This document shows, one piece after another, positions 730 through 38,858 of a DNA stretch of 64,000 bases. The stretch lies in NCBI GenBank assembly GCA_000004985.1, contig GG738847.1, one strand, 5' to 3'. The position numbers were made by a program, and so were the translations under genes. The notes below the pieces were generated by a model that saw nothing but the letters and a program-made list of their open reading frames with translations, had not been told where the DNA came from and searched no databases. How positions within the stretch are numbered: the stretch's first letter is position 1; each line of letters opens with the position of its first letter. Source of the DNA: Naegleria gruberi (taxonomy: Eukaryota).

Positions 730-802
730 GCCGACATAGCTCAGTTGGGAGAGCGTAAGACTGAAGATCTTAAGGTCCCTGGTTCGATCCCTGGTGTCGG
801 CA
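730..802 (+). tRNA. tRNA-Phe (anticodon GAA)
   Basis: GCCGACATAGCTCAGTTGGGAGAGCGTAAGACTGAAGATCTTAAGGTCCCTGGTTCGATCCCTGGTGTCGGCA. Acceptor, D and anticodon stems are perfect, the anticodon loop is CTGAAGA, and the T-loop is TTCGATC. There is one U51:U63 mismatch in the T-stem. The sequence is near-identical to animal tRNA-Phe. A T6 run follows. Confidence 0.88.
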
Positions 803-955: not shown

Positions 956-1924
956 TTACAAGGAAGGTTTGACGATTGGCTTTGATGACTTCTTGCATGT
1001 CTTTCTCTTGATACAAATCTTCTTCTTGATTGACTTGCAACACTTCTTCTTTCCACCAACAAATTTGAATTTCTTACAAATTTTCTTACCCTTTGAACGT
1101 TTCAAACACTTCTTATAATACTTCTTCTTGATACATCTTGGAGGAATGATAATTGACTTGGCACAATACTTCTTCTTTTGATATTTGACACATTTGGAAA
1201 CAGTCTTCTTGTGCTTACAGAACTTGATGGTCTTATGCTTGGCACAGAAGAATTTCTTCTTAATGAGACAACACTTCTTAACTGATTTTCTCTCCTTACA
1301 ATATTTAACCTTCTTATACTTGGCACATTTCTTAGCCCATGAAACTATCTTGCACTTTTTAACATATCTACATTTGGCAACCTTCTTATTGTAGGAATCA
1401 ACAGTGTACTTGTCGCAAACCTTCTTCTTTTCACACTTCTTGATTGGAACCTTCTTGAATTTCTTGCAGACCTTCTTAAATCCCTTCTTGACACACTTGT
1501 TAATAATCTTGTGTTTGGCACAGAATTTCTTGAAGCCCTTCTTGATGCAAATCTTCTTTGTTCCATAAGAATCACAAACTTTCCAATACTTCTTCTTGGC
1601 ACATCCAACTACTTTGTATGCATGCAAGACGCATTTCTTTGTTGGCTTGCTATACTTGTCACATTTGGAATATTTCTTATGTTTGAGACATTTGCCAGCA
1701 CCGACAATGGCATATTGATCACAGACTTTCTTTTGACCAACGAGTTTGTGCTTTAAACACTTCTTAATCCACTTGTGCTTTAAGCATTTTCTCTTACAAA
1801 TCTTTGGCTTGTGATACTTGTCAACAACGACTGGAGGTTTAGTTTGATAGCTGTCACTTGCTTGAACAGAGAGGATGGCAAGCAAGAGTAGAATTGCAAT
1901 TGAAAAGATTAGATTTGCTTTCAT
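956..1924 (-). CDS. Secreted lysine/cysteine-rich repeat protein (322 aa; signal peptide MKANLIFSIAILLLLAILSVQA)
   Basis: True ATG start. The N-terminal hydrophobic segment is followed by about 300 aa that are roughly 30 percent Lys and 14 percent Cys, with a reiterated K-K-C-x(4-8) pattern. No similarity to a known family was recognised. Confidence 0.7.
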   Translation of the reverse strand: MKANLIFSIAILLLLAILSVQASDSYQTKPPVVVDKYHKPKICKRKCLKHKWIKKCLKHKLVGQKKVCDQYAIVGAGKCLKHKKYSKCDKYSKPTKKCVLHAYKVVGCAKKKYWKVCDSYGTKKICIKKGFKKFCAKHKIINKCVKKGFKKVCKKFKKVPIKKCEKKKVCDKYTVDSYNKKVAKCRYVKKCKIVSWAKKCAKYKKVKYCKERKSVKKCCLIKKKFFCAKHKTIKFCKHKKTVSKCVKYQKKKYCAKSIIIPPRCIKKKYYKKCLKRSKGKKICKKFKFVGGKKKCCKSIKKKICIKRKTCKKSSKPIVKPSL

Positions 1925-2240
1925 TTTTTGTTATTGGATGGAATAGTTCAACAGAAGGGTGCTAATTTAAACCATTTCTAATAGTTTTTCATTTGGAACA
2001 AGCTCAAAAAGTTAGATGTAAGGTTCCAAATTTGGATAGAAAACTGATATCCATACGAACTTGAACTAATTCAATTTACTAATTTACAATTACCTAATAC
2101 TATTCAAATATCAACTCATACTTCAAATTTAAAATTTCTCAAAAATCAACAATTCAGAGCAAGAAAGTTAATAATGTTGACGAATCCAAACAATAGATTG
2201 GTTTATAAAAAAGAACATTACCATTCGTTAAAGAATTCAT

Positions 2241-5200
2241 TTATTTACTCAGAAAAAGAGAATATTTGATGGAAATATTGGTGTGCATTGAAGAAAGTTT
2301 TGTTCCTTCATCAGGAAGCTTGTCACATTCATCAATTACCTTTTGAACTAGATGGTGGATTGAAACATCCTTATTTCTCGTACTTTTCGCCTTGAGAGAA
2401 CTCTTGGAAATGATTAACAAATGAACAATGCTGTCCATAGAAGAAAGTCTCTCAGCAAATGATTCCCAATATTTTTCCATATTGTAATGAACACTGCTCA
2501 ATCTTCTCATACTCAAAAACTTGGATGTACTCTTCTCAGTTGAAGAAGGAGAAGAATAAATAGATGCTGTGGAAATAGCTAGTGGATTATTGGCAGTAGC
2601 ATCAATTCTTGTTAAATTTTGTGAAGTTCTTGTAATTTCTTGTTGATTCTTCTTCTTTGCTTCCAAAATCTTCTTTTGAAGTAGTGGATCACGAATATCT
2701 TGTTCTTCAATTAGTAAATCTTTCAATCTTTGTATTGCTACATAGAGTGCTGTCTCTCCATATAAATTAGTTTTCTCAATTGAATATCTGTAATGTCTTG
2801 GATCTAGTCTTCTCTCCTTCAAAATAAATGAACTATTTTCATGATGTGCTTGATCCTCTTCACTGCTTTCATTGATGGTTGGTCTTCTCCTTCTGAAAAA
2901 TCTACCAGATCTCGGCTCTGAATCCCTTGGAGTTTGTTGATCTTCAGGTGTAGTAGCACTTTGAGATCTTCTTGGAGTTTTGATGAGGTTGGAGAGTTTT
3001 TCAAATCCTTTTTTGAATCTGGCAGTACCTGGGCTTTGTTGAGGACTTGGTTGTGGCGAAATTTTCTTTTCAATTAATGAAACTTTCAACTGTGGAATAT
3101 TCACTCTGCCACTATCTTGTAATGATGTAGATGTTCCACCAAGTTGGAAAGCAAGTTTGGCATTAGAAGGAAAGACTGTAGTATTAATGTCAGAGTCACT
3201 TGAGGACATTTGCTTTGAAACAGCTGTCAATCCCAAATCTGAAACATCCGTAGCTGAACAATCAGTATGTCTTCTGAAAGGAACCAGAGTTCTTCTCTTT
3301 TGTTGAATATCATCTTGATTCTCAGTGGCAACTGAGAGGAATAGCTCTACAACATTCGAATTATTAAACCAACATGCCAAGTGGAGTGGAGTGAATCCCT
3401 CATACTTGTCTGGTTCGTAAAATAATTTCTGATAGAGATCTTCTGGCAGTGAGAGGGCACATAAATGTAAGAATACAACATTATTGGACATGGCTGCCAG
3501 ATGGAACAAGTTCAATCCATGAGCAATAGTCTTGACAGTACAACATGCCTTATAATCAATTTCATTCAAGAGGTATAACCACACTCTCATATAATTCTTT
3601 CTTTCAGCATCAGTTAAATCCTTATTCCAATTTCTAGAGTTGGTTCTAATGAATTTTTCCAGTGATCCCAATGGTGAATTTGGATAATAGGAAGGTTGAT
3701 ATCTCTCCAAGAACTCATCAGTCTCCATCTTGTCATTGTAATGCACAGAAAGAACACTTCTCATTAGAGCAGTTAGACCATTATCATCTCTCATATTGGC
3801 AAAAGTAATTGGCTCTGTATAGAAATCAATTAATAATTTCACAATTTCTGGATATCCTTTTGATGCTGCAATATGAAGTGATGTGACTCCAGAATCTCTC
3901 TTCTTGAGGGTAGGTGAAACCCCCAACAAGATCATTGTTTCTATGGATTTGTAATCTCTAGCATCTGCAGCCAAGTGAATAGCTGCATTACCATAGGTGT
4001 CCTTTCTGGCCCAGTCCAACTTTTTAACACCTGTTTTGGAGAGAGCCGTCAAGAGCATTGTCAAAACATCACAATTTCCTTTTGTGGCTGCTACATGAAG
4101 AGCTGTTCCTTCAATCTTGTTTGTGTAATTGAGATTAATGTCAAACTTGCTCAACATCAGTGCAACAACCTCAACTTGATTATATTGAATTGCTATCTGA
4201 AGTAATGAATTACCATTATGATTATCTCTTATATTGTTCACATTTGTATCATCGAGAACGCACTCCAACAATGCAACACAACCACTCTTAGTAGCATGAA
4301 TGATAATGTTAGAGTTCTTAGCTACTTCTGAAAGTGGAGTCAGCTTGGGAATGTAAAATGATAGAGATGATCCAACTTGTTTCAGAGGAGTACTCACGCT
4401 TATTGGTGCAGCTCCCTTTGTTGGTGTTGATGGATCTTTTAGAGCAGAGGCTGCTACCTGATTAGAAAAACTCAATAAATTGGAAGAGGAGGCTGCCTTG
4501 ATATGAATTGGAGAATTGGTGGAGGAACCTCTTCCAAACATGAGTTTAGTTGGAGTGTGAGGTGATTTGAGGTGTTCTACTAAGAGATCTGTTGCTGGTT
4601 TTGAAGCTTCTAGAGTAGGCACAGGTTTCTTTTGAGGAGAGAAGGCCAATCCATTATTATCCACTGCAGGTATTGGGCTTATTGGATTGATAGAATAATT
4701 GGTAGCACTTGCTGCAACACTATCACTAATGTGATGTTTGATATCGACAACAAAATCTTGGTGATGTGAAAATGATGAAGCTGCCATTGAATTGCTTCTT
4801 CTCTTTCCTTGGGCAGCTCTTTGTTTGGTATTCCTTCTTCTGGCTGTTTTGTTTCCCTGCTCATTGATGTGATTTGTAATTGAGGTCCCAACTCCAACTA
4901 TTGCTCCATAAACTGCTCCAATATCAATACGAGGTGTCAGTAAATCGTGATCATTATAACTTGTCACACTTGATATCGATCTAACAGAAATCATTCCATC
5001 ATGATGGAAAGGATCAGATTCATCCATAGAATTTTTAAAATTCAAATTGAGTGGATACTTTCCCTTTTCTGAATGAGATGGGGGGTGATCTGTTGTTGGA
5101 TTACTATTTACTCTATGATGTTGTGGTTTGTTATGTGCTGGTGATGTAGGGTATGAATGAGAATTATCTGTTATCACTGAAACTGCTGATAGAGGTGTTG

Positions 5201-6413
5201 GGCTATTATTAGTAGTATTAATGGTTGAAGTTGGAGCCACTATATTATCATTAAATACTGATATCTTTACAGGTGACAGAGTTGGTGAGGCAGTTAAATT
5301 GATATGAGAAAATGAATTATTATGATCATTGATTGGGGAAGACACTCTATGAATGTTGGAAGAAGGAGGGCTTGTTGTAAGATTAGAGGAATTATTTTGA
5401 GTTGGTGATGATACATTGGAGGAATTAGTTGGTGGTGGATTTGTTGCTTTTTGAATATTATTACCAATTTGATAATTGTTATCATTATTGAGAGGTGCTG
5501 AACTATTTGGAGAGGTTACATTAGTGGTTTTGGAGGATGAGGATGGAGTTGATACATGATAGAAAGATTGAGATTTCTGATTTAACAATTGAGAGGATGA
5601 AGTGTTAAAATTCACAGGCACTCTTCTACCATTAATAATGGCAACATTATTACCTGACAGTGAGGAAGGGGTGGATGGAGTTTTCATTGCATAATCTATT
5701 GCTCCACCATTGCTGGGTTTTGGAGTACAGACAATATCATTGTCCCAGCCCTGATTGTTTCGTTGTGGTTGTAGTGGTGATTGCAAATCGTGTAAACCAC
5801 TTGTAGGAGATACAAGTCTTTCTGCCGAAGGTGTCGATGGAGTTGGATAATTACTGGCATATCCTAGTCTATTGTTGTGTAATTTTGCCTCTCGTTCCAT
5901 AGTTTCATGAATTTGTTGTTTCTTCGTTTGGACATGATTCAAATAGTTTGCCAAATGCTTGAACATTTTCCCAGAAAGTAGTTTCCCATTATTATTCGAA
6001 TCTTCATGTGGTGAAGTTAGAGTATTGAGACTGGATGTATCATTGGAGCTTCTTGGTGTGATATTGTTTGAACTTCGTGGTGTGGATGGAGTTGTTGACA
6101 TTCCTCCAACAGATGAATTACATGAAGTGGGCGACAGGGCATTATTCCTCATCATGAAAGGCACATGTTGTTGTGATTGTAATGTTGGTTTAAATGTTGA
6201 AGTGCTATTATTACTTCCATTATTATTTGAATTATTATTCCTATTATCTCCATGTTGTTCTTGTTGTTGCTGCTGCGGTAACGAAGAATAGGATGAAGGA
6301 GAGAGAATGATGGAACCACTATTATTGTTATTATTAATTATGGAGGATGAAGAAGTTGTTGATTGAATGGTTGCCGAAGTTGTGGAAACCGTTTGAAGAT
6401 CAATACCATCCAA
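2241..6413 (-). CDS. Ankyrin-repeat protein with long N/S/T/Q-rich low-complexity regions (about 1390 aa in the window; 5' exon not located)
   Basis: Multiple ANK repeats (LHVAATKGNCDVLTMLL, AIHLAADARDYKSIETMILLG, SLHIAASKGYPEIVKLLI, TPLHLACWFNNSNVVELFL). The ORF track start at 6413 is a TTG, and the frame is closed by TAA at 6513-6515 with no in-frame ATG upstream. The first in-frame ATG is at 6155. Confidence 0.72.
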   Translation of the reverse strand: MDGIDLQTVSTTSATIQSTTSSSSIINNNNNSGSIILSPSSYSSLPQQQQQEQHGDNRNNNSNNNGSNNSTSTFKPTLQSQQHVPFMMRNNALSPTSCNSSVGGMSTTPSTPRSSNNITPRSSNDTSSLNTLTSPHEDSNNNGKLLSGKMFKHLANYLNHVQTKKQQIHETMEREAKLHNNRLGYASNYPTPSTPSAERLVSPTSGLHDLQSPLQPQRNNQGWDNDIVCTPKPSNGGAIDYAMKTPSTPSSLSGNNVAIINGRRVPVNFNTSSSQLLNQKSQSFYHVSTPSSSSKTTNVTSPNSSAPLNNDNNYQIGNNIQKATNPPPTNSSNVSSPTQNNSSNLTTSPPSSNIHRVSSPINDHNNSFSHINLTASPTLSPVKISVFNDNIVAPTSTINTTNNSPTPLSAVSVITDNSHSYPTSPAHNKPQHHRVNSNPTTDHPPSHSEKGKYPLNLNFKNSMDESDPFHHDGMISVRSISSVTSYNDHDLLTPRIDIGAVYGAIVGVGTSITNHINEQGNKTARRRNTKQRAAQGKRRSNSMAASSFSHHQDFVVDIKHHISDSVAASATNYSINPISPIPAVDNNGLAFSPQKKPVPTLEASKPATDLLVEHLKSPHTPTKLMFGRGSSTNSPIHIKAASSSNLLSFSNQVAASALKDPSTPTKGAAPISVSTPLKQVGSSLSFYIPKLTPLSEVAKNSNIIIHATKSGCVALLECVLDDTNVNNIRDNHNGNSLLQIAIQYNQVEVVALMLSKFDINLNYTNKIEGTALHVAATKGNCDVLTMLLTALSKTGVKKLDWARKDTYGNAAIHLAADARDYKSIETMILLGVSPTLKKRDSGVTSLHIAASKGYPEIVKLLIDFYTEPITFANMRDDNGLTALMRSVLSVHYNDKMETDEFLERYQPSYYPNSPLGSLEKFIRTNSRNWNKDLTDAERKNYMRVWLYLLNEIDYKACCTVKTIAHGLNLFHLAAMSNNVVFLHLCALSLPEDLYQKLFYEPDKYEGFTPLHLACWFNNSNVVELFLSVATENQDDIQQKRRTLVPFRRHTDCSATDVSDLGLTAVSKQMSSSDSDINTTVFPSNAKLAFQLGGTSTSLQDSGRVNIPQLKVSLIEKKISPQPSPQQSPGTARFKKGFEKLSNLIKTPRRSQSATTPEDQQTPRDSEPRSGRFFRRRRPTINESSEEDQAHHENSSFILKERRLDPRHYRYSIEKTNLYGETALYVAIQRLKDLLIEEQDIRDPLLQKKILEAKKKNQQEITRTSQNLTRIDATANNPLAISTASIYSSPSSTEKSTSKFLSMRRLSSVHYNMEKYWESFAERLSSMDSIVHLLIISKSSLKAKSTRNKDVSIHHLVQKVIDECDKLPDEGTKLSSMHTNISIKYSLFLSK

Positions 6414-14050: not shown

Positions 14051-14070
14051 TTCATGGCTCGCCACGTTTA

Positions 14071-14141
14071 CCGTCTCGGGAGGAATCGAACCTCCGTCAA
14101 TGGATTCAAAGTCCACTATGCTACCATTACACCACGAGACG
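14071..14141 (-). tRNA. tRNA-Gln (anticodon UUG)
   Basis: Minus strand CGTCTCGTGGTGTAATGGTAGCATAGTGGACTTTGAATCCATTGACGGAGGTTCGATTCCTCCCGAGACGG. All four stems pair, the anticodon loop is CTTTGAA, and the D and anticodon arms are near-identical to animal tRNA-Gln. The first base pair is the unusual C1:G72. Confidence 0.82.
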
Positions 14142-14337
14142 AGCACATTTATGATATTTCGATACGAATAATTAACTGGATTGGAACATAAAAGCACACG
14201 ACATTCTTGTTACATATTGAAAAGTAGTGTAGTATCGTCTTCATTTCCCCAATACTCCAAATTGGTAAAATATTTAGTATGAACAACCGTTTCGAATAAA
14301 TTTCTTGCTTAATCACTGATTCAACAAAATTCGGAAA

Positions 14338-16854: not shown

Positions 16855-19170
16855 TTATTTAAGTTCTGTAACAGCAAGCCCATTCTTGTGAACCAAAGTC
16901 TCTGCATCTTGGACAGCCTTTTTCTTGGCTTCTTGTTGAGTGAAAAGTTTCTTTTGTTTATCTAGAGCCTTAGAAAGATTCTTCTTGGCACTCTTTGTCA
17001 CTTCGACACCATCCTTATCCTTAGTTGGGAGGCCAGTTTCATCCCATTCAGAGAACTGGGAAGCATATTCTCCTTGTTTGAAAAATTCGAGTGGATCAAT
17101 CAATGATGTTTCGTATTCTTTTTGAGCAGTGGCAAGTTTTTCTTCAGATTTCTTGAGAGCATCAAGTTTGGCTTGTTTTTCATTTGCTTTCTTTTCTTCT
17201 CTTTCTCTCAAAAGTTCATTCTTATCGGCCAACTTCCAAGATGTTGTTTCCTTCTTATCTTCTAATCTAATTCCAAGACCTGGAAGAACATCATCTCTCA
17301 AAGAATCACAAGTTTGTAAAATTCTTTGTTCCTTCTTGTCATTCTTGTCACGAGCAATGTTTCTAATTTCAGATCTAAAGTCAGAGAGAGCATTAATGAT
17401 TGGAGCAACATTTTCTTCATAGCTTTCACCTCCAGAAACTGGGAAACCGAATGTATCAACACCATCAACCAAACCAAAAACTGAGAAAATTCTAGTGACA
17501 TAGTAACCAACTTGCTTCAAAAGTGGAACACTTGGATACTTTGGAGCATCAGCACTGTGTTGATCACCTCCTTGTTTGACAAATTCATTGAATTTTTCAA
17601 CATTCTTCTTTTCCAAATAAGTGTTAGTTGCCTTGATCAAAGATTGGAGAGTTATCATACATTTAATGGTATCGAATGAATTTCTCAAAGCAGTATCAAC
17701 GTCAAGTTTGCTCTTTGACAAGGTTTCACTCAATTCAAAATCAGCTTGATCCCATTTTTCAATACTCTTACCAGTCTTGGTAACATAATCTCTGAAAATA
17801 ATCTTTAAATTACCAAAGAATTCTTGGAATGATTTTTCAATAGACTTGGCATATTCCATAGTTGTTTCAGAATATTCCATTTCATCATCAAATTTACGAT
17901 AGAGGAACATCATTCTGATTTGACGAGCAGTGTACTTTTCAAGAGCTTGTCTAATGGTAATAAAGTTCTTCTTTGATTTAGACATGGACATTCCATCAAT
18001 GGACAAGTGACCAGTGTGAAGGAAATAATTGACCCATTGTCTTGAACCAAGATAAGCTTCAGATTGAGCAAGTTCATTATCGTGGTGAGGGAACTTCAAG
18101 TCGATACCACCACAGTGAACATCCAAAGTAGCATCATTAGCAGATCTACCAGCCAATTTAGCAGCTTGTTGAAGTGCATAACAAGCCATAGCACTACATT
18201 CAATGTGCCATCCAGGTCTACCTTTACCCCATTTACTATCCCATTCTGGTTCACCTGGCTTTGAGGTCTTCCACAAAGCAAAGTCCTTCTTTGATTTCTT
18301 TTTAAAAACTTTCTTTTCAGTTTCAGATTCACCTTCACCATCCATCAAACGTTCTTCACAATTAACATTCCATGGTTCCAATTTACCATAAACATGTTTT
18401 TGATTTTGTTGGAAAGCTTCAACATCAAAGTAAACATTTCCACCTTCTTCATAAGCAAAACCATTATCAATAATTTGTTGAATAAAACTAACAACTTCAT
18501 CAATATGTTCAGTAACTCTAACAAGAACTGTTGGTGTCTTGACTTGAAGTTGTTTCATATCTTCCCAGAACAAATGTTCATAATAACGTGGAACAGACAA
18601 AAAGTCTGGTTGAGAAATTAAATCAGCACTCAATCCAGCTTCAACAACAGCATTCACAAGTGCTTTAAATTCATCAAGAATTTGTCCCAATGTAAGTTGT
18701 TTAGCCTTTACCTTTTCTTCTTGATCAATCTTTAACTTTTGTTGCAAATTCAAAAGGTATTCTTGTAATTTACTATTTGATTCCGATGATGGAAGGCTTG
18801 TAAGTTTTTCTAAAAGTGATGAAGCATTATTTTCCAAGGCTACTCTATTACTCTTCTTGATAATCTTATCATCAATATCGGTAATATTTTCAATATAAAT
18901 AACATTAAAGTTGAAATAATCTTCCAAAATTCTGCGAACAATATCAAAACCAACATAGGTTCTGGCATGTCCCATATGACTCCAATCATAAACTGTTGGA
19001 CCACAAGTGTACCAAGTAATGGTATTACTATTGTCTTGTAAGATGAACTTTTCCTTCTGACAAGTCAAGGAATTGTACACTTCAATACCAGTGTCTCTTC
19101 CTTGTGGTTTGAACCATTCTGGTTGTTGTACTGATGGTTTTTGTCCACTTGTTGTTGTTTGTGGTAGCAT
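16855..19170 (-). CDS. Cysteinyl-tRNA synthetase (cytoplasmic type with K/E-rich C-terminal extension), 771 aa
   Basis: ATG start. Class I motifs are present: the HIGH-type region CGPTVYDWSHMGHARTYV, the KMSKS motif (LSIDGMSMSKSKKNF), and the zinc-binding CysRS core (WHIECSAM). Confidence 0.93.
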   Translation of the reverse strand: MLPQTTTSGQKPSVQQPEWFKPQGRDTGIEVYNSLTCQKEKFILQDNSNTITWYTCGPTVYDWSHMGHARTYVGFDIVRRILEDYFNFNVIYIENITDIDDKIIKKSNRVALENNASSLLEKLTSLPSSESNSKLQEYLLNLQQKLKIDQEEKVKAKQLTLGQILDEFKALVNAVVEAGLSADLISQPDFLSVPRYYEHLFWEDMKQLQVKTPTVLVRVTEHIDEVVSFIQQIIDNGFAYEEGGNVYFDVEAFQQNQKHVYGKLEPWNVNCEERLMDGEGESETEKKVFKKKSKKDFALWKTSKPGEPEWDSKWGKGRPGWHIECSAMACYALQQAAKLAGRSANDATLDVHCGGIDLKFPHHDNELAQSEAYLGSRQWVNYFLHTGHLSIDGMSMSKSKKNFITIRQALEKYTARQIRMMFLYRKFDDEMEYSETTMEYAKSIEKSFQEFFGNLKIIFRDYVTKTGKSIEKWDQADFELSETLSKSKLDVDTALRNSFDTIKCMITLQSLIKATNTYLEKKNVEKFNEFVKQGGDQHSADAPKYPSVPLLKQVGYYVTRIFSVFGLVDGVDTFGFPVSGGESYEENVAPIINALSDFRSEIRNIARDKNDKKEQRILQTCDSLRDDVLPGLGIRLEDKKETTSWKLADKNELLREREEKKANEKQAKLDALKKSEEKLATAQKEYETSLIDPLEFFKQGEYASQFSEWDETGLPTKDKDGVEVTKSAKKNLSKALDKQKKLFTQQEAKKKAVQDAETLVHKNGLAVTELK

Positions 19171-22878: not shown

Positions 22879-24276
22879 ATGAGTTTTGATGGTTTTGAAG
22901 AAATTGCAAGCACGTTGATTCAAGCCAATCACGTGAAACAAGCTTTGCAAGCTGTAAACAAACAGCAAAAGATGTACAAAACACTCCTCTCACAAAGACA
23001 ATTACCAAAGGAGGGATTTTCGGATCAACAGATTGAGTCCTTGCTTTCCTTCTTTGCATCAATGGATACGAATAATTATGAAAATCATATCGGAATTGGA
23101 GAAAGAGAAGGAAGAGTGTTTAGTAAATTGGTGGAAAAGAGACACTTCTACCTCAGTCATGGTATTGGAAGATCTGGAGAATTAACATCAAATCAACCAA
23201 AAGCAGCTGGATCCTCTATTATTTTACAGTTGTGTAACTATCTTGTCAATCATGCAATTCAATTAGCAGGATGTAAAAATGTAAAGAAATCAATTGTTGT
23301 GCCAATGTGTACAGGAATGACACTTGCCTTGTGTCTGAGATCCTTGGCCAACAGTTTGGAACAGCCCAATAAGAAGTATGTCATTTGGCCAAGAATAGAT
23401 CAACAATCTGTCCTCAAATCTATTGACACTGCTGGATTTACACCAATAGTCATTGAGAATGTTTTAAATGAGGATGGATCTATTGAGGCAAATCTACAAT
23501 CTATTGAAAGCAAGATACAACAAGTTGGAGCTGAAAATATTTTGTGTGTCTTGTCGACAACAAGTTGTTTTGCACCTCGAGTTCCAGATGATGTTTTTGA
23601 AATTGGAAAGATTTGTTTCAAGTATGGAATTGGACAAGTTGTAAATAATGCCTATGGAGTTCAATCAAAAATAATTATGGAGAGAATTAACAAGACAATT
23701 GCCAGTTCAAAATCAACCATTACTTGTTTCGTTCAGAGTACTGATAAGAACTTTATGGTACCTGTCGGAGGAGCTGTTGTTTCCAGTGGTAGTGATATCA
23801 CCTTTATTGATAAGGTGTCGAAAATATATGCAGGAAGAGCATCCATGACACCAATTCTTGACCTATTCATCACTCTTCTATCAATGGGTAAAGATGGATG
23901 GGAGAAGCTTCTCGCAGAACGAGAGGTGCTATTTCAACATTTTGTTTCTGAGATTGAATCCAAATTAACCAATACCCAATCTAAATTTTCCTTAATACGA
24001 GGCTCTTTACAGAGAAACCAAATTTCATTTGCTCTTTCCATTGATTTACCAAAGGAGGAGGCACTAAAGGTGGGCGTATCGCTTTTTTACAGAAATTGTA
24101 CTGGTCCTCGGGTAGTTCTGAAAGGTAGCTCAAAAACAGTACTCCCCCATCTTTCATTTGTTGGATATGGTTCTCATACTGATTCCTATCCTCATCATTA
24201 CATTACGCTTGCTTGCGCTATTGGTATTGAAAAGGAGGAAATTGAATCCTTCTTAACCTTGCTTAATAAAGTTTAA
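22879..24276 (+). CDS. SEPSECS: O-phosphoseryl-tRNA(Sec) selenium transferase (SepSecS, SLA/LP family), 465 aa, single exon
   Basis: GIGEREGRVFSKLVEKRHFYLSHGIGRSGELTSNQPKAAGSS, WPRIDQQS, STTSCFAPRVPD, VNNAYGVQS and the PLP-lysine context STDKNFMVPVGG align closely with SepSecS along the whole length. Confidence 0.9.
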   Translation: MSFDGFEEIASTLIQANHVKQALQAVNKQQKMYKTLLSQRQLPKEGFSDQQIESLLSFFASMDTNNYENHIGIGEREGRVFSKLVEKRHFYLSHGIGRSGELTSNQPKAAGSSIILQLCNYLVNHAIQLAGCKNVKKSIVVPMCTGMTLALCLRSLANSLEQPNKKYVIWPRIDQQSVLKSIDTAGFTPIVIENVLNEDGSIEANLQSIESKIQQVGAENILCVLSTTSCFAPRVPDDVFEIGKICFKYGIGQVVNNAYGVQSKIIMERINKTIASSKSTITCFVQSTDKNFMVPVGGAVVSSGSDITFIDKVSKIYAGRASMTPILDLFITLLSMGKDGWEKLLAEREVLFQHFVSEIESKLTNTQSKFSLIRGSLQRNQISFALSIDLPKEEALKVGVSLFYRNCTGPRVVLKGSSKTVLPHLSFVGYGSHTDSYPHHYITLACAIGIEKEEIESFLTLLNKV

Positions 24277-27874: not shown

Positions 27875-30800
27875 TTATTGTTGTTCTTGATTAAGATTGA
27901 CTTGACGAGCTTGATTTTCATTGATAGAGTAAATATCTACCATTTGGAGTGGAATTGGATTAACTCTACGCTTTGATTCTTGTTCGGTTGGGACTACAAA
28001 TACGCTCTTCTTGCCTTCCTTTGGATCTTCTTTAATTTGAACCTTAATATAATATCCTCCATCCTTATGCTTAACAATATTTGCATGGTGAAGCATTGGA
28101 TCATCAGAAATTTGACCATTGTTAACATAAGGTTCTCTTGGAAGTTGACCAACAGGGAATCTCTCTGGTTTTGGTTTAATTTCACCTCTTGGATAAGCTC
28201 TATTATTTGCAGGTTCAACAGTTGGAGGATAATTTTTAAATGTTGCTTGATTATCACCCGGATATGGATTACTAACGTAATTTGTTCTTGAATCAATATA
28301 TGAAGCATTGTTTCTTGCCTCTGAATAACCATTATTTCTTGATTCTGAATAGGCATTATTTCTAGTTTCAACGTAAGAGTTGTTTACGCGCAAGTTATTA
28401 TTGGCTTGACTATTGGATTGGTATGAACTGCTTTGCATTTGAGTACTTGAAATCTTATTATTCATACCAATATTCAATGTGTTTGGAAGATCAGGTCTAA
28501 CAACAGGTTCTTGAGATCCATCATTAAAGTAAGTCTTATAAGTTGTTTCATAAATACCAACTGTTGAGGCTTTTCCATAGCCTGAATAATCAATTTCAGA
28601 ACTCACATTCTTCAATCTATTTTCAGCAACTTCATTTCTGGCAACATATGTGCTTGCAACTTTTGGTTTTTGATTTTCAACAACAATTGAAACTGGTCGA
28701 ACAATTTCCGGTTTTTGTGGTTGTTCATATACTGGAGGGTCAAATCTTGGAGGACTGATATAATCATTAACTGGAACAACTCTTGGAGGAGTTTCATAAG
28801 AGTTATTATTGGATTGAGCAAATTCATTTCTTTGTCTATTTTCAACAACTCTACTTTCAACAACAGTGGCCTTATTATTATTACTAATACCAACAAAATC
28901 GCCGTCAACTCTCCAAACAGGACCTGAACTGATTGGGAGAGGTTGTTCTTGAGTACCATCATTCTTATAATAGGTCTTGTAAGTTGTTTCATAGGTTCCT
29001 GTTGTTGATTTACCATAGTTAGAATGGTCAATTTCTGTAGAGGAATTCTTCATTCTGTTTTCATTCATAGCATTAACTGATTCAACTCTAAGGTTAAGAT
29101 TGGCTTGTCCTGTAACTATGTTATTTCTATCTTGGACAATTGATCTCTCATTGTAATAGACAATGTCGTTCTTCTTATTGTTATCAACTACGTATGAAGA
29201 ATCTGTTTGATTATTATAGCTGGAAAGTTGAGATTGTTCATGCATGTATTTTTCTTGCATTCTGTACGCATCTCTATTTTCAACATATTCTTCATTAATA
29301 TAAGAATCATTGACAACTCTTTCAGGAATTGGTTGAGGGATTGGTTGAGAAACGACTTGCTGTGTCATAATTGGCTTTGGAATTACAGGAACAATTGGTT
29401 GATGAATGACTGGTTGCGAGTTTGTTTGTGGAGGAGGAACTGAAGATCTATTAACAACTTCAGTAACTCTTGCTGCTTGGTCAGTGTTAACATAGTTCGA
29501 TGAATTGTTATGAACAACTTTTTCGTAGTATCCTTCATGTTGATCATTCATGTCAGTCATTGAAGATTGGTTATGGATAACAGACTTTTCAATATTGACA
29601 CGTCCATTATCATTAACAGTTTTAACAATTTCAGATCTGGAGCCATTATTATCTGTAACAGTTGTCTTGACTGTTTCATAGGAACTGTAATTGTTGTTTT
29701 GTCCACTCTTATTATTGACAACTTGTTCTGTTTCAACAGTTTTAGTTTCCAACTTGACAGCAGTGGTATTAGCACCCTTTGTTATATCAATATTTCTATC
29801 ATTAGAGCTCTTATTAACAACAGTCTTGGTTTCAGACTTAGTTTCAGTTGATTCAACGGACTTTCTATTTTGGTTTGCATTTTCTGGAGGTGTTCTCTTA
29901 ACCTTTTTAGCTTCGGTCTTCTTCTTGGCTTCGGTCTTACTCTTGGCTTCAATCCTACTCTTAACTTCATTCTTAGAATTAGAAGCAACCTTTTGCAAAA
30001 CGTGTTTACTTTCTTCTGTCTTTGGGGATGGCTTCTTAATTAATTGAGGTTCAGATTTAGTCTTCTTAGTTTCAGGAGCTGAAATACTTCTACTTGGGTT
30101 TGCCATTTTAACTGGTTTAGCTTCTTGTCTTTTAACAATCTTCCCAGGTGGTGAACCATTTCTTGCTCTATTGTTTACTGCCTTTACAATTCTTTCATTT
30201 GCTTGCATTCTTTCTTGATTAACATCTTTTTGTTGTTGAAGGAGGTTATTTTTTGATTTACGTTCATAAAAATTGATTTTTCCATTATTATTATTCTTAG
30301 CTTGTTCATTCTTGTTGTGGTAGTGTGTCTTTGTTTCAGTTGTAATTTTGCCATTATCATTAATTTCAATTGTGATTTCAGTTCTAGTACCTCGCTCATC
30401 AGTGATAGTTCTCCTTGTTTCCTTCTTTATAATGTTATGTTCAGAGAATTGATTATTCTTTGAACGATTATTGACAACTGCTTCTTGGTTGTTGTAACTC
30501 TCGTCATAATCTTCAGAACGTTCAACATTAGTTCTTTTTCCATTCACCAATGTACTCTTTTCAACATTAACCTTTCCATTATTATTCACACCCTTAACTA
30601 TTTCTGTTCTTGTTCCATTTTCATCTGTAACTGTACGCTTTGTTTCATAAGTGCTGTAGTTGGAAGATTCTGAATCATTCTTCTTGGCTTTCTTTTCCAC
30701 CACATAATTTTCTTCCTGTTGGTTATTCTTTGATTGGACCTTAATAGGTTTCTTTGGTTTTGGTGGAATGAATTGTGGTTTTTGTTTGACAACCTTTTCT

Positions 30801-33800
30801 TCAACCACATAAGAAGGTTCTTGTTTAACAACCTTTTCAACAATTGTTTCTTGTTGTGGGATGAACTTTGGTTGTTGCTTTACAATCTTTTCTTCTTCAA
30901 CAATTTGACTGTGTTTCTCTTCAGAATGAATTCTTTCGTCATAGGAAGATCTCCTATTAATATTACCATTGTCATTAACTTCCTTTACAACTTCAGTTCT
31001 TGTTCCATTATTATCACTAACAGTTTTAGAAGACTCGAATGAGCTGTAACTTGAACTCCTTGTTCTGGAACCATTAAGCTTATCTTCAGTAAAGTGTTCT
31101 GGAAGAGACAGAATGTTTTTAGATGAGGTGTGCATAGTTTGGTGTATTTCTTGTTTTGGTTCATAGCTATTCTTTGATGTGACGATCTTTTCTTCATCAT
31201 AATCTTCTGTTGCAAAAAGTTGATCTTCAACGCTCTCCTCGACAGCTTCTTGTTCTTTTTCTACAACATATTTAGCAGAATCTTTTCTGATAAATCTTGG
31301 TTCTTCAATATGTTCTTCAACTTCATTTTCTTCGATGTATTGAGATTTTTGCTTAATCAATGGCTTACTTGGTTTTGGAGGGCTAACTACCTTTGGAACA
31401 TGTCTTGGTTCATCTATTAGCTTTTCTTCGACACGTTTTGGCACATGATGAATTGCAGTCTCTCTTGGCTTTGGGCTAACAACCTTTGGAAGATAAACTG
31501 GTTCATCAATCTTTTCTTCAACCTCATAGGAAACGTGTTCGACAGTATCTCTTGGTGAAGGAGAGAATTCATTTCTTTGTCTAACAATTTTCTCTTCTAC
31601 TATTGTTTCTTGTGGTGTTTCTTCTACAGCCTTTTCCTCTACGTGGAGCAATGCCTCTTGGTCATAATGTTGAGTCTCTCCATAGCTAGAAGTTACTCTA
31701 CTCCTGCCAGTGCTTCTTCTTGCAGAAGCATATGATCTTCTGGATGAACATTTGGATTCCTTCTCCTTTTCGGATAATTCAGTCAAGAATGGAGGAGCAA
31801 AGTAATCATCACTAGTGCTTTGTTTTGTAATGAAAGTGCTGTTAAACTCTTCTTGAGCAATTGGTGCAGTGTTCTTTGCATGATTACTAACTGCTTGTTC
31901 TTCTTCAATCATAAAGGATGGTTCGACATATTCTTGCTTTACAACACCAGCCTTCTTGTCATTTTCATAAACACTCTTTTCAATATTAACTTTTCCATTA
32001 TCGTTCACTCCCTTAATAATTTCTGTTCTTGTTCCATTATTGTCACTAACAGTATTTGAAGATTCATAAGTACTATAGTTTGTGTAGAATCCACCAGTCT
32101 TTAATCTGGCATCGCCAAGATGTTCTTGAGTTAAAATCTGACCATTATTATTAGATGATTCATAAGTACTATAACTTGTACTATATCCAGTCTTGATGGC
32201 TCTGACATCACCATGATGTTCCTGAGAAGAATATTCCCCGGTATGAAGATTTCTGGAAGCATTAGTAACACCTCTATCATTGTTCATAGCATTTGGATAA
32301 ACATCATAACCATTACCTGAAACAACCTCAGAGTGACCATTTTGAGAAAACACCTTTTCCACATTGACTTTACCATTGTCATTGACCCCTCTTATGGTTT
32401 CAGTTCTCGTTTGTCCATTTTCATCAGTGTAAGTTCTTGTTGTTTCATAGGTACTATAGTTATTAGAATAGCCAGCATTCGAATTGGTTCTATTTTGAGC
32501 AGCAGAAACAGCAACAAGTTCATGCTTTTCACGGCTTCCTTTAGAAGAGAATGGCGATTCAGTTCTTGAAGATTTGCTGCTTTGGTTTCTTGAACCATAC
32601 GTATTAATCTTGTTTGTGTAATATTGGGCATTACTGTTTGAAACAGTTCTTGAGTACTCATTGAAATCTTCATTATGATAGTCATCCAATGTTGTTGACT
32701 CTTGATTCATCTCATCAACTGTTTGGTGATATTCATACCCTCTGTTAGTTTCAGAGTGGGATTTCATAAATGGTACATGTTCATGTTGCTCACGAGCATA
32801 ATTAATAGCTTGCCTACTTCCGTGAGAAGAGGAATAATGACTACCTTTAAAGCTACTACCTCTACTGTATTCTCTTTTTTCTTCTTCACTGTTACTTCTA
32901 CTGGTGAGAGTACGATAGCTTCCTGTATCCTTAATATCAGCCATTGACCTCATATGTTCGTAATTGACAACAGAATGTCCTCCTTCTTTAGTCTCTGTTA
33001 TCATTTGTCTATTTTGCATTTCCTCGGTGCTGACAAAGGTACCACCCTCTTTCCTATAGGCATGAGCACTGGTTGTTTGTCTTGCCACTCCTTCCAACAT
33101 ATTTTGATTGCTTGCATATTGGCTATCAGACGAATTGGTTGTTGTATTGGTTGTGGTGGTTACAACTTTCTTACCTCCATTCTTCTCTAACATTTCAATA
33201 TCAGTGTCGACAGCTTTTGCCACCAACATGATTGTCCCGTCCTTCATTCTCTTACCAACGTACACTACCTTCTTTTTGACAACTACATCTTGTTGGTATT
33301 TCTTCTTGTAATAGCAGCAGCATACGGCCACACAAATGAATGTAATAGTAAAAACACAACAAACCAATAAGATACCACCTGCAACGCAAATAATGATAAT
33401 ATAGGAAACATAGGTGACGGTAGTTGTTTCCATCACGAAAACATTGGTCAAATGATTACATTTACATTTAACAAGTGAAGAATTCAAGGAGGTGTAAGTG
33501 CAATTTGTTGTGGAAAAAGTTGCCAAGCTTGCTGCAGAATCTTCAAAATTAGCACAGTAGAAAATTCTTGATTGAACTACATATGAAAATGATTGTTGAG
33601 TTAGGTCATGAACAATGTTGGTGGTATTCACTGGAATGATATATTCTATACCTTCCCCATTAAACGAGACAGGATTATCAGTAATGGCAAGAGAGACAAT
33701 TGGAGAAACGGCACTTGATAATTTGTAAGTAGATGGTAAGCTTGTCTTGAGAGGGGTGTTCAACTTCTTGTTGAGACCAATGATATCATCAGAAACAATT

Positions 33801-37480: not shown

Positions 37481-38858
37481 TTTTTTGTTTGCTGACCGTA
37501 ACAAACTAAGCTTTAAACTTTCACAAGACTTTGTGAACAAATTAAGGTGGAGCGTTTCCAAACGAGGCCTCTTCAGTTACTTCTGCACTCGATAACTTAG
37601 TTTCCTTCTCCGATCCCAATACTTCCTTAAGGGAATTGATGCCTTGTTAGATTTTCGGTTACTGATATTCTCGCTGTGTTTTTTTGCCGCAACAATCAAT
37701 TCATCACTTCCCTTAATTTTTTCCTCTTTGTAGTTTAACCAACGCCAATAATAATGTAAATAGGTTGTGTAATCATTGACTGAATAGGAAACTTGAGACA
37801 TTGGCTAAAAAACTTAATGAAATATATTTCATACCTCACCTAGAAATCAAGGCCTAAAAGCTAAGTTGACTTCTAATTAGAAGGCAGGAGTGATTTTTTT
37901 TTTTCTCTGGGGTTTTCTATTGAAAATCAAATTAGAAGTGGAAATAAATGGTAATCTTGCTCAAACTCAACATAACAAACTGGGAAATTCTTTAACTGGC
38001 ATTGATGAAAAAAGTTCTGATGAACTATTAAGTTTCCACCTTTCTTCAAGTCATTTCGGTATAGAATTCATTCTCTTTACTAAACTATTTTGAACAAACA
38101 CTTTATGGAAGTGCCGCTCAATAAAAAGTACCTCAATCATTACTAACAACAAACAAAATAACTTTTCCATCTTTGTTGATAACAATTACTAATAATATGA
38201 TCAATAAAACTGTTCCATCCTTAATACTTCAAAGGGTCAATATAAATTACCAAAGAAACCATTTTGTATTGATGCGGATCTTTTAACACTATTAACAGAT
38301 TTTATCTACCCTTTCCTATGCGCGTCATGGTTCAACATTGAGAAAAACTCATCACCAATAACGACAAATAAGAATTGACGATGCTTTTAAATACAAAAGT
38401 GGCTCCTCTAGCTGATTGTGTCTGCTTTCACCCAACAAGTCCAAGTTACTTGGCGTTTTTGTTTGCATCTCCCTGATGTACTTGTTGTTAACTTGCGTAG
38501 AATAATTAGAGAAAAAAAACAACGCAACTTTGCAGGTATTGAAGGTATAAATCACAACAACAAGCCTTTGAAAAATTAATTGATACTCTGCGGTTTGGAT
38601 TCAACCTCAAATACCAATCATACAACAATAGTACGAGAGTGTGTGAACGCATTGTTTAAACTTGTTTCAAGTATCTTCATAGTCACCGTTTAATTCTCTC
38701 TTCGAATATATTAGCATTTTGTGATCAAACAAGCCTTCCGAAATTTACCCTCTTTGATCATCACAACCACCACATTTTGTATACTACTGCTACCAATCGC
38801 TAATACTTCCATCAAATCTCCACACAATTGTAACATATAACTCTCCTAGGAATACACC

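What the first reader, a model, noticed from the sequence alone, without database searches (positions are those of the whole stretch)
956..1924. Extremely lysine/cysteine-rich secreted protein with KKC-type periodic repeats
After a canonical signal peptide, about 300 aa are roughly 30 percent Lys and 14 percent Cys, arranged as C-x(3-8)-K-K-C reiterations with almost no acidic residues. The strongly cationic, disulfide-rich secreted character suggests an antimicrobial, extracellular-matrix/eggshell or nucleic-acid/polyanion-binding role. No family was recognised. Because the reverse strand is K-codon complementary, it yields several spurious antisense ORFs.
Basis: seen in the sequence. Interest (0 to 1): 0.55.

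Follow-up and report, generated by a model that had tools for sequence, protein, structure and literature searches.

The report
Unannotated polylysine-like, cysteine-periodic secreted Naegleria protein
This is a real gene, missing from the Naegleria gruberi reference annotation, for a secreted protein that is one-third lysine with a cysteine about every ninth residue; it belongs to an undescribed family found only in Naegleria (including the brain-eating N. fowleri), and its function, most plausibly a cross-linked cyst-wall or matrix component, is untested.

Summary
Window 956-1924 (-) is an intact 322-codon ORF. Cys-Cys spacing is dominated by 9 residues, beyond any shuffle.

It is a real gene. 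An ortholog gives dN/dS 0.13. A second ortholog keeps 31/32 Cys although synonymous sites are saturated. A paralog has a frame-preserving GT..AG intron. The CDS avoids poly(A) tracts despite 108 Lys codons.

The window is N. gruberi NEG-M, but this ORF is not in the public protein set. A roughly 95% identical copy is mis-modelled as a chimera (NAEGRDRAFT_76199).

A profile search of 1.84 billion proteins found only 19 relatives. Every one that carries a name is from Naegleria: N. gruberi (4 further annotated paralogs, dispersed), N. fowleri and N. lovaniensis. No Pfam, PDB or literature match exists.

All 7 Asp sit in D-x-Y motifs, and paralogs carry tandem VDTYKPPKK tails.

Best guess (inferred, about 0.35-0.4): an extracellular cyst-wall or matrix building block cross-linked through Cys and Tyr and binding anionic polymers. 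Rivals are an antibacterial polycation, an adhesive and a polyanion packager. Function needs stage-resolved expression and localisation data.

The parts
956..1924 (-). Complete single-exon CDS (322 codons + TAA) of the Lys/Cys-rich secreted protein
   Evidence: ORF list and translation. It is the only frame without internal stops. It is colinear with the intact ortholog L005 18-998 and with L004. dN/dS is 0.127.
1859..1924 (-). Signal peptide, aa 1-22 (MKANLIFSIAILLLLAILSVQA|SD)
   Evidence: Hydropathy profile and -3/-1 rule. AF2 models a helix at 3-21. An N-terminal hydrophobic leader is present in all full-length family members.
1799..1858 (-). Cys-free N-terminal segment of the mature protein with two D-x-Y...KP motifs (SDSYQTKPPVVVDKYHKPKI)
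   Evidence: The same (V)D[ST]Y motif opens the mature part of the paralogs.
995..1798 (-). Cys-periodic, Lys-rich core, aa 43-310: 32 Cys, modal spacing 9, unit roughly C-x-K-x-K-x-x-K-K-C. Includes the conserved landmarks IVGAGKC, PPRC and FVGGKKKC.
   Evidence: Cys positions and spacing. Autocorrelation against shuffles and 9-mer logo. 30/32 and 31/32 Cys are conserved in orthologs. Nearly invariant Cys columns run across the family.
1391..1414 (-). Central conserved DKYTVDSY motif (aa 171-178), preceded by Cys170, between the two halves of the core
   Evidence: D171, Y173, V175 and Y178 are invariant in alignment A1. All 7 Asp of the protein lie in D-x-Y, against 0.39 expected.
959..994 (-). 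Cys-free basic C-terminal tail (KKSSKPIVKPSL). No hydrophobic GPI or TM signal.
   Evidence: Paralogs carry tandem [VI]D[ST]YKP(PKK) repeats at this position.
1925..2240 (-). 316-bp upstream intergenic region (presumed promoter/5'UTR) between this gene and the stop of the upstream ankyrin-repeat gene
   Evidence: It is not conserved with the ortholog's upstream region (110 of 345 alignment columns identical), in contrast to the CDS.

Best explanation
SHOWN:
- Window 956-1924 (-) is a genuine, intron-less, protein-coding gene of Naegleria gruberi NEG-M that is missing from the public gene set.
- It encodes a protein with a signal peptide and no membrane anchor.
- The roughly 35-kDa mature part is a polylysine-like polycation (net charge about +104) built on a conserved scaffold of 32 cysteines spaced about 9 residues apart.
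- It belongs to an undescribed multigene family. Every member that carries a name is from Naegleria, and the rest are unnamed environmental or metagenome sequences.

INFERRED (most likely mechanism):
- The protein enters the secretory pathway. Its 32 Cys form a dense set of intra- and/or intermolecular disulfides that rigidify an extended, beta-hairpin-rich rod.
- It is deposited outside the cell as a structural building block, most plausibly of the cyst wall or another extracellular matrix layer.
- There the Lys carpet binds anionic polymers or surfaces electrostatically.
- The D-x-Y / [VI]D[ST]YKP motifs at the termini and centre serve as Tyr-based (and possibly Lys-based) cross-linking or docking sites. 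This would resemble the periodic-Cys oocyst and cyst-wall proteins of other protists and the Tyr/Lys/Pro repeats of plant cell-wall PRPs and mussel foot proteins.

Confidence that it is a real secreted family member is above 0.9. Confidence in the wall/matrix function is about 0.35-0.4.
For: Real gene:
- 322 stop-free codons, P about 6e-11 by base composition.
- The ortholog in L004 is 74% identical, with dN/dS 0.127 at dS 1.1 and 30/32 Cys kept.
- The complete ortholog in L005 is 62% identical with 31/32 Cys kept, while synonymous sites are saturated (pS 0.84, pN 0.25).
- The upstream DNA is not conserved.
- The paralog in L001 has a GT..AG intron that restores the frame.
- No A-run exceeds 5 nt and there is no AAA-AAA pair among 108 Lys codons. 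AAG is used in 55/65 Lys in runs but only 25/43 isolated Lys. The permutation fraction is 0.013 at fixed codon counts and 0 of 5000 against background usage.

Organism and annotation: four other window ORFs are exact matches to N. gruberi NEG-M proteins on a 941,567-bp scaffold, while this ORF has no exact entry. The homology search found nothing closer than 73% identity (P0001, an unnamed environmental sequence) or 88% over 48% of the query (P0002, the chimeric NEG-M model).

Family:
- Only 19 hits among 1.84e9 representatives.
- Named members are NAEGRDRAFT_67458, _64980, _66117, _57793, _76199, N. fowleri FDP41_004030 and FDP41_008345, and N. lovaniensis C9374_009239.
- The nine full-length members tabulated each have 31-40 Cys per core domain. 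All 12 members tabulated have pI 9.2-10.3.

Wall/matrix lean:
- The Cys scaffold is what the whole family conserves, even in paralogs with only 13-14% Lys.
- D-x-Y is massively enriched: 7/7 Asp here, and in 7 of the 8 members of the three D-x-Y-bearing subfamilies none of 2000 shuffles reached the observed count; the eighth (P0028) gave p = 0.004.
- Paralogs end in 4x KVDTYKPPK or 3-4x IDSYKP.
- There is no TM or GPI signal and no N-glycan sequon.
- AF2 models are all-beta long hairpins, though at low confidence.
- Selection is purifying rather than diversifying.
Against: - There are no expression, localisation or biochemical data for any family member. None of the accession numbers occurs in the searchable literature or in the supplements checked.
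- Such extreme Lys content is not typical of known protist wall proteins.
- The AF2 models are low confidence (mean pLDDT 43.8 and 57.1) and have no structural neighbours, so the 'rod of disulfide-laddered hairpins' is only a suggestion.
- The composition of the Naegleria cyst wall could not be checked here (the Werth & Kahn 1967 paper is not held).
- The polycationic nature fits antimicrobial or adhesive roles equally well.
- The D-x-Y motif is absent from the 700-aa subfamily.
Confidence: 0.4

Rival explanations
1. Polycationic antibacterial or bacteria-agglutinating effector. The protein is delivered to phagosomes or secreted. Its roughly +104 charge binds and disrupts or clumps anionic bacterial envelopes, acting like protamine, polylysine or eosinophil cationic proteins. 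The disulfides give stability in the phagolysosome.
For: It has a signal peptide, extreme positive charge and almost no acidic residues. Naegleria is a bacterivore (established knowledge). K/R is conserved at 95/108 Lys positions in the ortholog.
Against: - At 35 kDa with a rigid 32-Cys periodic scaffold, it is unlike known antimicrobial peptides.
- There is no Pfam match to defensin or saposin-type families.
- dN/dS of 0.13 shows purifying rather than the diversifying selection common in immune effectors.
- Paralogs keep the scaffold while dropping to 13-14% Lys, so the scaffold rather than the charge is the family's core.
- It is not among the proteins identified from the N. fowleri trophozoite lysate and conditioned-medium 2-DE study. 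This is weak evidence, because pI >10 proteins run off such gels.
Confidence: 0.2
2. Secreted surface adhesive ('natural polylysine'). It glues amoebae or cysts to negatively charged mineral or organic surfaces. Lys displaces surface cations and Tyr (possibly oxidised) and Cys provide cohesion, as in mussel foot proteins.
For: The family composition is K + Y + C rich. The N. fowleri paralog has 20% K, 11.6% Y and 8.4% C. Tandem VDTYKPPKK / IDSYKP tails recall the mfp-1 decapeptide and PPVYK wall proteins (resemblance recalled from general knowledge). The protein is secreted and has no anchor.
Against: There is no evidence of DOPA formation or of a suitable oxidase. The window member itself has only 5.3% Tyr and has lost the C-terminal Tyr repeats. 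There are no expression data.
Confidence: 0.12
3. Intraluminal polyanion packager. It condenses an anionic cargo (acidic polysaccharide or mucoid plug material, polyphosphate, or nucleic acid) inside secretory vesicles, as basic proteins do in other secretory granules.
For: Charge density is about +1 per 3 residues together with a signal peptide. This overlaps mechanistically with the wall hypothesis.
Against: No cargo is known. The conserved, elaborate Cys scaffold and D-x-Y motifs are not needed for simple charge neutralisation.
Confidence: 0.1
4. Metallothionein-like metal-binding protein.
For: It is rich in both Cys and Lys.
Against: - It has a signal peptide, which implies an oxidising compartment.
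- Single Cys lie 9 residues apart, not in C-x-C or C-C clusters. There are only two CC pairs.
- It has 17 Tyr, 10 Phe and 3 Trp.
- No Pfam metallothionein family matches.
Confidence: 0.03
5. Spurious ORF, or the opposite strand is the functional one.
For: Composition is low-complexity-like, several antisense ORFs exist, and the ORF is not annotated in the reference.
Against: - dN/dS is 0.127 in this frame.
- Cys columns are conserved across species at 25-78% identity.
- A paralog has a frame-preserving intron.
- All other frames contain 7-28 stops.
- The signal peptide is conserved.
Confidence: 0.01

Closest known systems
Uncharacterised Naegleria 'predicted proteins' NAEGRDRAFT_67458, _64980, _66117, _57793, _76199; N. 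fowleri FDP41_004030 / FDP41_008345; N. lovaniensis C9374_009239
   Same: True homologs (E 1e-57 to 1e-11 single-sequence, stronger with a profile). They share the signal peptide, the roughly 32-Cys periodic core, the IVGxGKC / PxRC / FVGGKKxC landmarks and a basic pI.
   Different: The window protein is the most Lys-rich member (33.5% against 13-25%). It lacks the Tyr-repeat C-tail and the central insertions of subfamilies B and C, and it is itself unannotated. None of the family has a described function.
Apicomplexan oocyst wall proteins (Cryptosporidium COWP / Toxoplasma OWP)
   Same: Secreted proteins whose hallmark is cysteines at regular roughly 10-12-residue intervals and which form a disulfide-cross-linked resistant wall (general knowledge). 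The window protein has the same kind of periodic single-Cys architecture.
   Different: No detectable sequence relationship: the profile search returned only Naegleria or Naegleria-like sequences. COWPs are not polycationic and have His-rich type II repeats. A wall location for the Naegleria protein is not shown.
Giardia cyst wall proteins (CWP1-3, and the basic C-terminal extension of CWP2)
   Same: Secreted, Cys-containing, disulfide-linked wall proteins of an excavate protist. CWP2 carries a strongly basic tail (general knowledge).
   Different: CWPs are leucine-rich-repeat proteins, and no LRR or any other Pfam domain is found here. Here the basic character pervades the whole protein.
Tyr/Lys/Pro repeat structural and adhesive proteins (plant PRPs with PPVYK; mussel foot proteins mfp-1 and mfp-6)
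   Same: Lys + Tyr (+ Cys in mfp-6) rich, secreted, and cross-linked through Tyr. The family's VDTYKPPKK / IDSYKP tandem tails resemble these short repeats (resemblance from memory).
   Different: Analogy of composition only. There is no homology, the core here is a long Cys-periodic domain, and Tyr modification is untested.
Midkine / pleiotrophin heparin-binding factors and cationic Cys-stabilised antimicrobial proteins
   Same: Secreted, Lys-rich, disulfide-rich, beta-structured and polyanion-binding.
   Different: No Pfam match to PTN_MK or defensin-type families. This protein is several-fold larger, periodic, and far more basic.

Membership tests
Naegleria Lys/Cys-periodic secreted protein family (undescribed; defined here) | Significant full-length sequence similarity to other members | tested here: met
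   P0003 E 2.6e-57 with 45% identity over 88% of the query. P0004 and P0005 E 1e-15 to 1e-11. Profile hits.
Naegleria Lys/Cys-periodic secreted protein family (undescribed; defined here) | N-terminal signal peptide and no membrane anchor | tested here: met
   judged by the hydropathy and -3/-1 rule. SignalP was not available.
Naegleria Lys/Cys-periodic secreted protein family (undescribed; defined here) | About 32-Cys core with 9-10-residue spacing and the conserved landmarks (IVGxGKC, PxRC, FVGGKKxC, central D-x-Y) | tested here: met
   Alignments A1 and A2. Cys spacing.
Apicomplexan oocyst wall proteins (COWP/OWP) | Sequence homology to type I / type II Cys-rich repeats | tested here: not met
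   The profile search of 1.84e9 proteins returned no named non-Naegleria relatives. No Pfam hit at E<=1.
Apicomplexan oocyst wall proteins (COWP/OWP) | Regular cysteine periodicity in a secreted protein | tested here: met
   Modal spacing of 9; lag-9 autocorrelation 16 against a shuffle maximum of 11. This is analogy only.
Apicomplexan oocyst wall proteins (COWP/OWP) | Localisation in the resistant wall / wall-forming vesicles | not testable with these tools
   No localisation or stage-specific expression data were found.
Giardia cyst wall proteins | Leucine-rich repeats followed by a Cys-rich region | tested here: not met
   No LRR or other Pfam domain. Leu is only 4.3% of residues.
Metallothioneins | Cytosolic, C-x-C / C-C clusters, no aromatic residues | tested here: not met
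   It has a signal peptide, single Cys every 9 residues with only two CC pairs, and 17 Y + 10 F + 3 W. No Pfam hit.
Cys-stabilised cationic antimicrobial peptides (defensin-like) | Small (<10 kDa) domain with 6-8 Cys in a family-specific pattern | tested here: not met
   The mature protein is 300 aa (35.2 kDa) with 32 Cys. No Pfam hit.
Cys-stabilised cationic antimicrobial peptides (defensin-like) | Antimicrobial activity | not testable with these tools
   Needs a protein assay.
Midkine/pleiotrophin | PTN_MK_N / PTN_MK_C domains | tested here: not met
   No Pfam match at E<=1. No PDB sequence match.
DOPA/Tyr cross-linked adhesive or wall proteins (mfp, PRP) | Tandem short Tyr/Lys/Pro repeats | tested here: inconclusive
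   Such repeats are present in paralogs P0029 and P0006. The window protein has only isolated D-x-Y..KP motifs.
DOPA/Tyr cross-linked adhesive or wall proteins (mfp, PRP) | Tyr oxidation or cross-links | not testable with these tools
   Requires mass spectrometry or biochemistry.

The most novel reading that the evidence does not exclude
This family could be the hitherto unidentified proteinaceous scaffold of the Naegleria cyst wall, or of a secreted bio-adhesive. That would make it a new class of extracellular material: a polylysine-like beta-hairpin rod laddered by about 16 disulfides and locked by D-x-Y / VDTYKPPKK Tyr cross-links. It is found only in Naegleria, including N. fowleri, and is nearly invisible to routine tryptic proteomics and 2-DE.
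Probability: 0.25. Interest if true: 0.65.

Novelty: new variant of a known kind. Interest (0 to 1): 0.42.

Why it matters
- No protein component of the Naegleria cyst wall or matrix turned up in the literature searched here. If this family is one, it would give molecular handles (antibody targets, diagnostics, wall-disruption strategies) for N. fowleri cysts, because two paralogs exist in that pathogen.
- It corrects the N. gruberi NEG-M annotation by adding one missing gene and flagging one chimeric model.
- It is a natural example of a translated gene with 108 Lys codons that visibly avoids poly(A) tracks.
- It explains why such proteins escape proteomics. Only 7 tryptic peptides of 7 aa or more exist, covering 22% of the mature protein, and the pI is above 10.
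- The sequence design (polylysine on a periodic disulfide scaffold) may interest biomaterials research.
- If it turns out to be an ordinary lineage-specific secreted protein of minor function, the interest is modest.

Tried and rejected
Searches that found nothing:
- Pfam on the protein and 9 family members, no family at E<=1 beyond noise.
- PDB sequence searches with profile A1 and with P0031.
- Foldseek against PDB with the better model, best E 3.6, meaningless. The afdb50 library was unavailable.
- TRF, no DNA tandem repeat.
- tblastn of the family against the window, no second copy in the 64 kb.
- Viral contig scan.
- First metagenome scan, none. The alignment A2 was too divergent for pattern scanning. 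The second scan gave one useful locus, L005.

Structure: the two AF2 runs had mean pLDDT 43.8 and 57.1, too low to trust.

Context: gene neighbourhoods of paralogs and orthologs (L001-L007) showed no informative or conserved neighbours and no tandem arrays.

Literature: ten searches found no paper mentioning any family accession and no Naegleria cyst-wall protein study. The supplements of PMC9035749 and PMC9959186 hold none of the IDs. The list of proteins identified in the N. fowleri 2-DE secreted-protein study lacks them. The Werth & Kahn 1967 cyst-wall composition paper is not held.

Other:
- A search with the extra N-terminal Cys-rich domain of the 707-aa paralog returned nothing, not even the source protein, so that result is uninformative.
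- Elevated GC3 (0.49 against 0.25-0.35) was first considered a sign of high expression. I rejected that reading because the excess is AAG used specifically inside Lys runs.
- N- and C-halves of the core show only weak to moderate similarity (E 1e-8 to 1e-2). This may reflect an ancient internal duplication, but composition bias makes it uncertain.
Full report
**1. Observation**

The minus strand of window 956-1924 carries one uninterrupted ORF: ATG at 1924-1922, TAA at 958-956, 322 aa. The other five frames of the interval contain 7-28 stops. At the window's base composition, 322 stop-free codons have a probability of about 6e-11.

- The protein starts with MKANLIFSIAILLLLAILSVQA|SD. This has a basic n-region, a 15-residue hydrophobic core and a V-x-A cleavage motif.
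- The remaining 300 residues are 35.7% Lys, 10.7% Cys (32 Cys), 2% Arg and only 7 Asp + 2 Glu. Net charge is about +104, computed pI 10.2 and mass 35.2 kDa.
Everything else is as described.
- 14 of 31 successive Cys-Cys distances are exactly 9, and two more are CC+8. The Cys autocorrelation is 16 at lag 9 and 10 at lags 18 and 27. The largest value at any lag in 5000 shuffles was 11.
- The unit is roughly C-x-K-x-K-x-x-K-K-C.
- TRF finds no DNA tandem repeat, so the periodicity is an old protein-level feature, not a recent expansion.
They are by-products of AAG/AAA complementarity.

**2. It is a real gene**

- A contig from another Naegleria-like genome (L004) carries a colinear ortholog with 74% amino-acid identity. 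Nei-Gojobori gives dS 1.11, dN 0.14 and dN/dS 0.127. 30/32 Cys are identical, and 95/108 Lys are kept as K/R.
- A second, complete ortholog (L005 18-998, 326 aa, 62% identity) has saturated synonymous sites (pS 0.84) but pN of only 0.25. It keeps 31/32 Cys and is 32% K + 7% R.
- The 316-bp upstream region does not align with that of L004 (110/345 columns identical), unlike the CDS.
- Paralog loci L001 and L002 contain GT..AG introns whose removal restores the family reading frame.
- The coding strand has no A-run longer than 5 nt and no AAA-AAA codon pair, although 65 of the 108 Lys codons lie in KK+ runs. AAG is used for 55/65 Lys in runs but only 25/43 isolated Lys, and the window's background is 55% AAG.
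- Only 1.3% of permutations with the same codon counts have so short a longest A-run, and 0 of 5000 draws with background codon usage do. This looks like selection against poly(A) tracks in a translated mRNA. It also explains the raised GC3 (0.49 against 0.25-0.35 for neighbours) without invoking high expression.

**3. Organism and annotation status**

- Four other ORFs of the window are exact matches to N. gruberi strain NEG-M proteins from one 941,567-bp scaffold. One of them is SepSecS NAEGRDRAFT_60240.
- The Lys/Cys-rich ORF has no exact entry in the roughly 15-billion-sequence collection. The homology search of its 5.8 billion clusters found no near-identical one either.
- The closest entries are an environmental fragment (P0001, 73%) and NAEGRDRAFT_76199 (P0002).
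- NAEGRDRAFT_76199 is a chimeric model on a 39.8-kb scaffold. It joins a SAM/PB1 N-terminus to the last roughly 150 residues of a copy that I estimate, by eye, to be about 95% identical.
- The SAM/PB1 part is not in this window.
- So the gene is unannotated in the reference, and its allele or duplicate is mis-modelled.

**4. The family**

- A single-sequence search found 5 relatives.
- An HMM profile run against 1.84 billion representative proteins found only 19 at E<=1e-3, one of which (P0019) is a spurious repeat match.
- A second profile search found 12.
- Every member that carries a name is from Naegleria:
  - N. gruberi NAEGRDRAFT_67458 (45% identity), _64980, _66117 and _57793. The last is 707 aa, with an extra N-terminal 4-Cys-repeat region.
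  - N. fowleri FDP41_004030 and FDP41_008345.
  - N. lovaniensis C9374_009239.
- The remaining members are unnamed environmental or metagenome sequences.
- The N. gruberi paralogs sit on different scaffolds and none is in this window, so they are dispersed rather than tandem.
- All full-length members have a signal peptide. The nine full-length members tabulated have 31-40 Cys per core domain, at conserved columns.
- They share landmarks (IVGxGKC near the N-terminus, P-x-R-C and FVGGKKxC near the C-terminus). All 12 members tabulated have pI 9.2-10.3.
- Lys ranges from 13% to 33.5%, and the window protein is the extreme. What the family conserves is the Cys scaffold. The polycationic character is strong in subfamilies A-C and weaker in the 700-aa subfamily.
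- None of the accessions appears in any searchable paper or in the supplements inspected.
- No Pfam family, PDB sequence or PDB fold matches.

**5. Further anatomy**

- All seven Asp of the protein lie in D-x-Y: DSY, DKY, DQY, DKY, DSY, DKY, DSY. Four of these follow a Cys directly. The shuffle expectation is 0.39.
- The motif is similarly enriched in subfamilies A-C. In 7 of their 8 members none of 2000 shuffles reached the observed count; the eighth, P0028, gave p = 0.004. It is absent from the 700-aa subfamily.
- In the paralogs the mature N-terminus opens with (V)D[ST]Y. The C-terminus ends in tandem repeats such as 4x KVDTYKPPK (P0029) or 3-4x IDSYKP (N. fowleri P0006). The window protein keeps the N-terminal and central motifs but has a plain basic tail.
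- There is no N-glycosylation sequon and no hydrophobic C-terminus.
- AF2 with 5 or 13 sequences gives all-beta models made of long hairpins. Mean pLDDT is only 43.8 and 57.1, so this is a hint, not a structure.
- N- and C-halves of several members align weakly (E 1e-8 to 1e-2). This is compatible with an ancient internal duplication but is confounded by composition.

**6. Mechanism**

Shown: the protein is secretory-pathway, soluble (no anchor), strongly polycationic, has a Cys-periodic scaffold, and is under purifying selection.

Inferred: in the oxidising secretory pathway, 32 Cys will form many disulfides. One Cys every roughly 9 residues along extended strands is the design seen in disulfide-cross-linked resistant walls (apicomplexan COWPs), rather than in small globular toxins or antimicrobial peptides.

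Terminal Tyr/Lys/Pro motifs resemble the cross-linking repeats of plant PRPs and mussel foot proteins. This resemblance is recalled from general knowledge and was not tested here.

I therefore favour, at about 0.35-0.4, an extracellular structural role. The most plausible site is the cyst wall or an associated matrix or plug layer. There the Lys carpet would bind anionic polymers, and Cys and Tyr would provide covalent cross-links.

The rivals are:
- an antibacterial or agglutinating polycation (0.2);
- a surface adhesive (0.12);
- an intraluminal polyanion packager (0.1);
- a metal binder (0.03);
- an artefact (0.01).

Purifying selection, the large size and the fact that the scaffold is conserved more than the charge argue against the antimicrobial model, but do not exclude it.

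**7. Why it may have been overlooked**

Gene callers skipped it. Trypsin would cut the mature protein into 109 pieces, of which only 7 are 7 aa or longer (22% of residues). Its pI exceeds the range of standard 2-DE gels. Its absence from the proteins identified in the 2-DE study is therefore weak evidence.

**8. Verdict**

This is an unannotated member of an undescribed family seen only in Naegleria and Naegleria-like sequences. The proteins are secreted, Cys-periodic and polycationic. In kind it is a new variant of the periodic-Cys extracellular structural protein theme, with no homology to any described family.

Interest is moderate (0.42). It would be higher if the family proves to be the Naegleria cyst-wall scaffold.

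Noticed in passing
window 956-1924 (-) versus the public N. gruberi NEG-M gene set: The window is N. gruberi NEG-M: four ORFs are exact matches to NEG-M proteins on a 941,567-bp scaffold. This ORF, however, has no exact or near-identical protein entry, so it is a gene missed by the reference annotation.
   Followed up: yes
P0002 = NAEGRDRAFT_76199 (39.8-kb NEG-M scaffold; not in the window): The gene model is a chimera. A SAM/PB1-domain N-terminus is fused to the last roughly 150 aa of a copy about 95% identical (my estimate) to the window protein. The copy is either the other haplotype or a recent duplicate.
   Followed up: partly
L004 (Logan SRR32051688), codon aligned with Gly107 of the window protein: The otherwise intact 74%-identical ortholog has an in-frame TGA where the window has GGA. 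This could be an assembly error, a nonsense allele or a pseudogene. A Sec codon is unlikely because other homologs have Gly or Thr at that position.
   Followed up: partly
window 956-1924 (-), coding strand: The CDS avoids poly(A) tracks. It has 108 Lys codons but no A-run longer than 5 nt and no AAA-AAA pair. AAG is used in 85% of Lys in runs against 58% of isolated Lys.
   Followed up: yes
window 956-1924 (-) and paralogs P0029, P0006, P0022, P0010: Every Asp of the window protein is part of a D-x-Y motif. Paralogs end in tandem KVDTYKPPK / IDSYKP repeats. The motif is absent from the 700-aa subfamily (P0016, P0031).
   Followed up: partly
window 730-802 (+) and 14070-14142 (-): tRNA-Phe(GAA) lies 153 bp beyond the 3' end of the gene, on the opposite strand. 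tRNA-Gln(TTG) lies further along the window.
   Followed up: no
window 2241-6413 (-): The long ORF immediately upstream (listed as 1390 aa from a TTG start; true start not determined) has ankyrin repeats (Pfam Ank_2 7e-28) and long poly-N / poly-Q / Ser-rich low-complexity regions. A paralog locus (L002) also has an ankyrin-repeat neighbour, but in a different orientation, so this is probably coincidence.
   Followed up: partly
window 22879-24276 (+) and 16855-19170 (-): The window carries SepSecS (selenocysteine synthesis, PF05889, 4e-117; exact match to NAEGRDRAFT_60240) and a class I Cys-tRNA synthetase. The presence of SepSecS suggests that Naegleria makes selenocysteine.
   Followed up: no
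window 27875-37561 (-): This is a 3228-aa ORF with no Pfam domain apart from a marginal Teneurin-like EGF hit (2.3e-5). It is a giant uncharacterised protein.
   Followed up: partly
P0031 / P0030 / P0023 residues ~95-385 (not in the window): The 700-aa subfamily has an extra N-terminal region made of roughly 40-aa repeats with 4 Cys each (CP-x6-9-C-x15-20-C-x4-C). It has no Pfam or PDB match. A homology search with it returned nothing, not even the source protein.
   Followed up: partly
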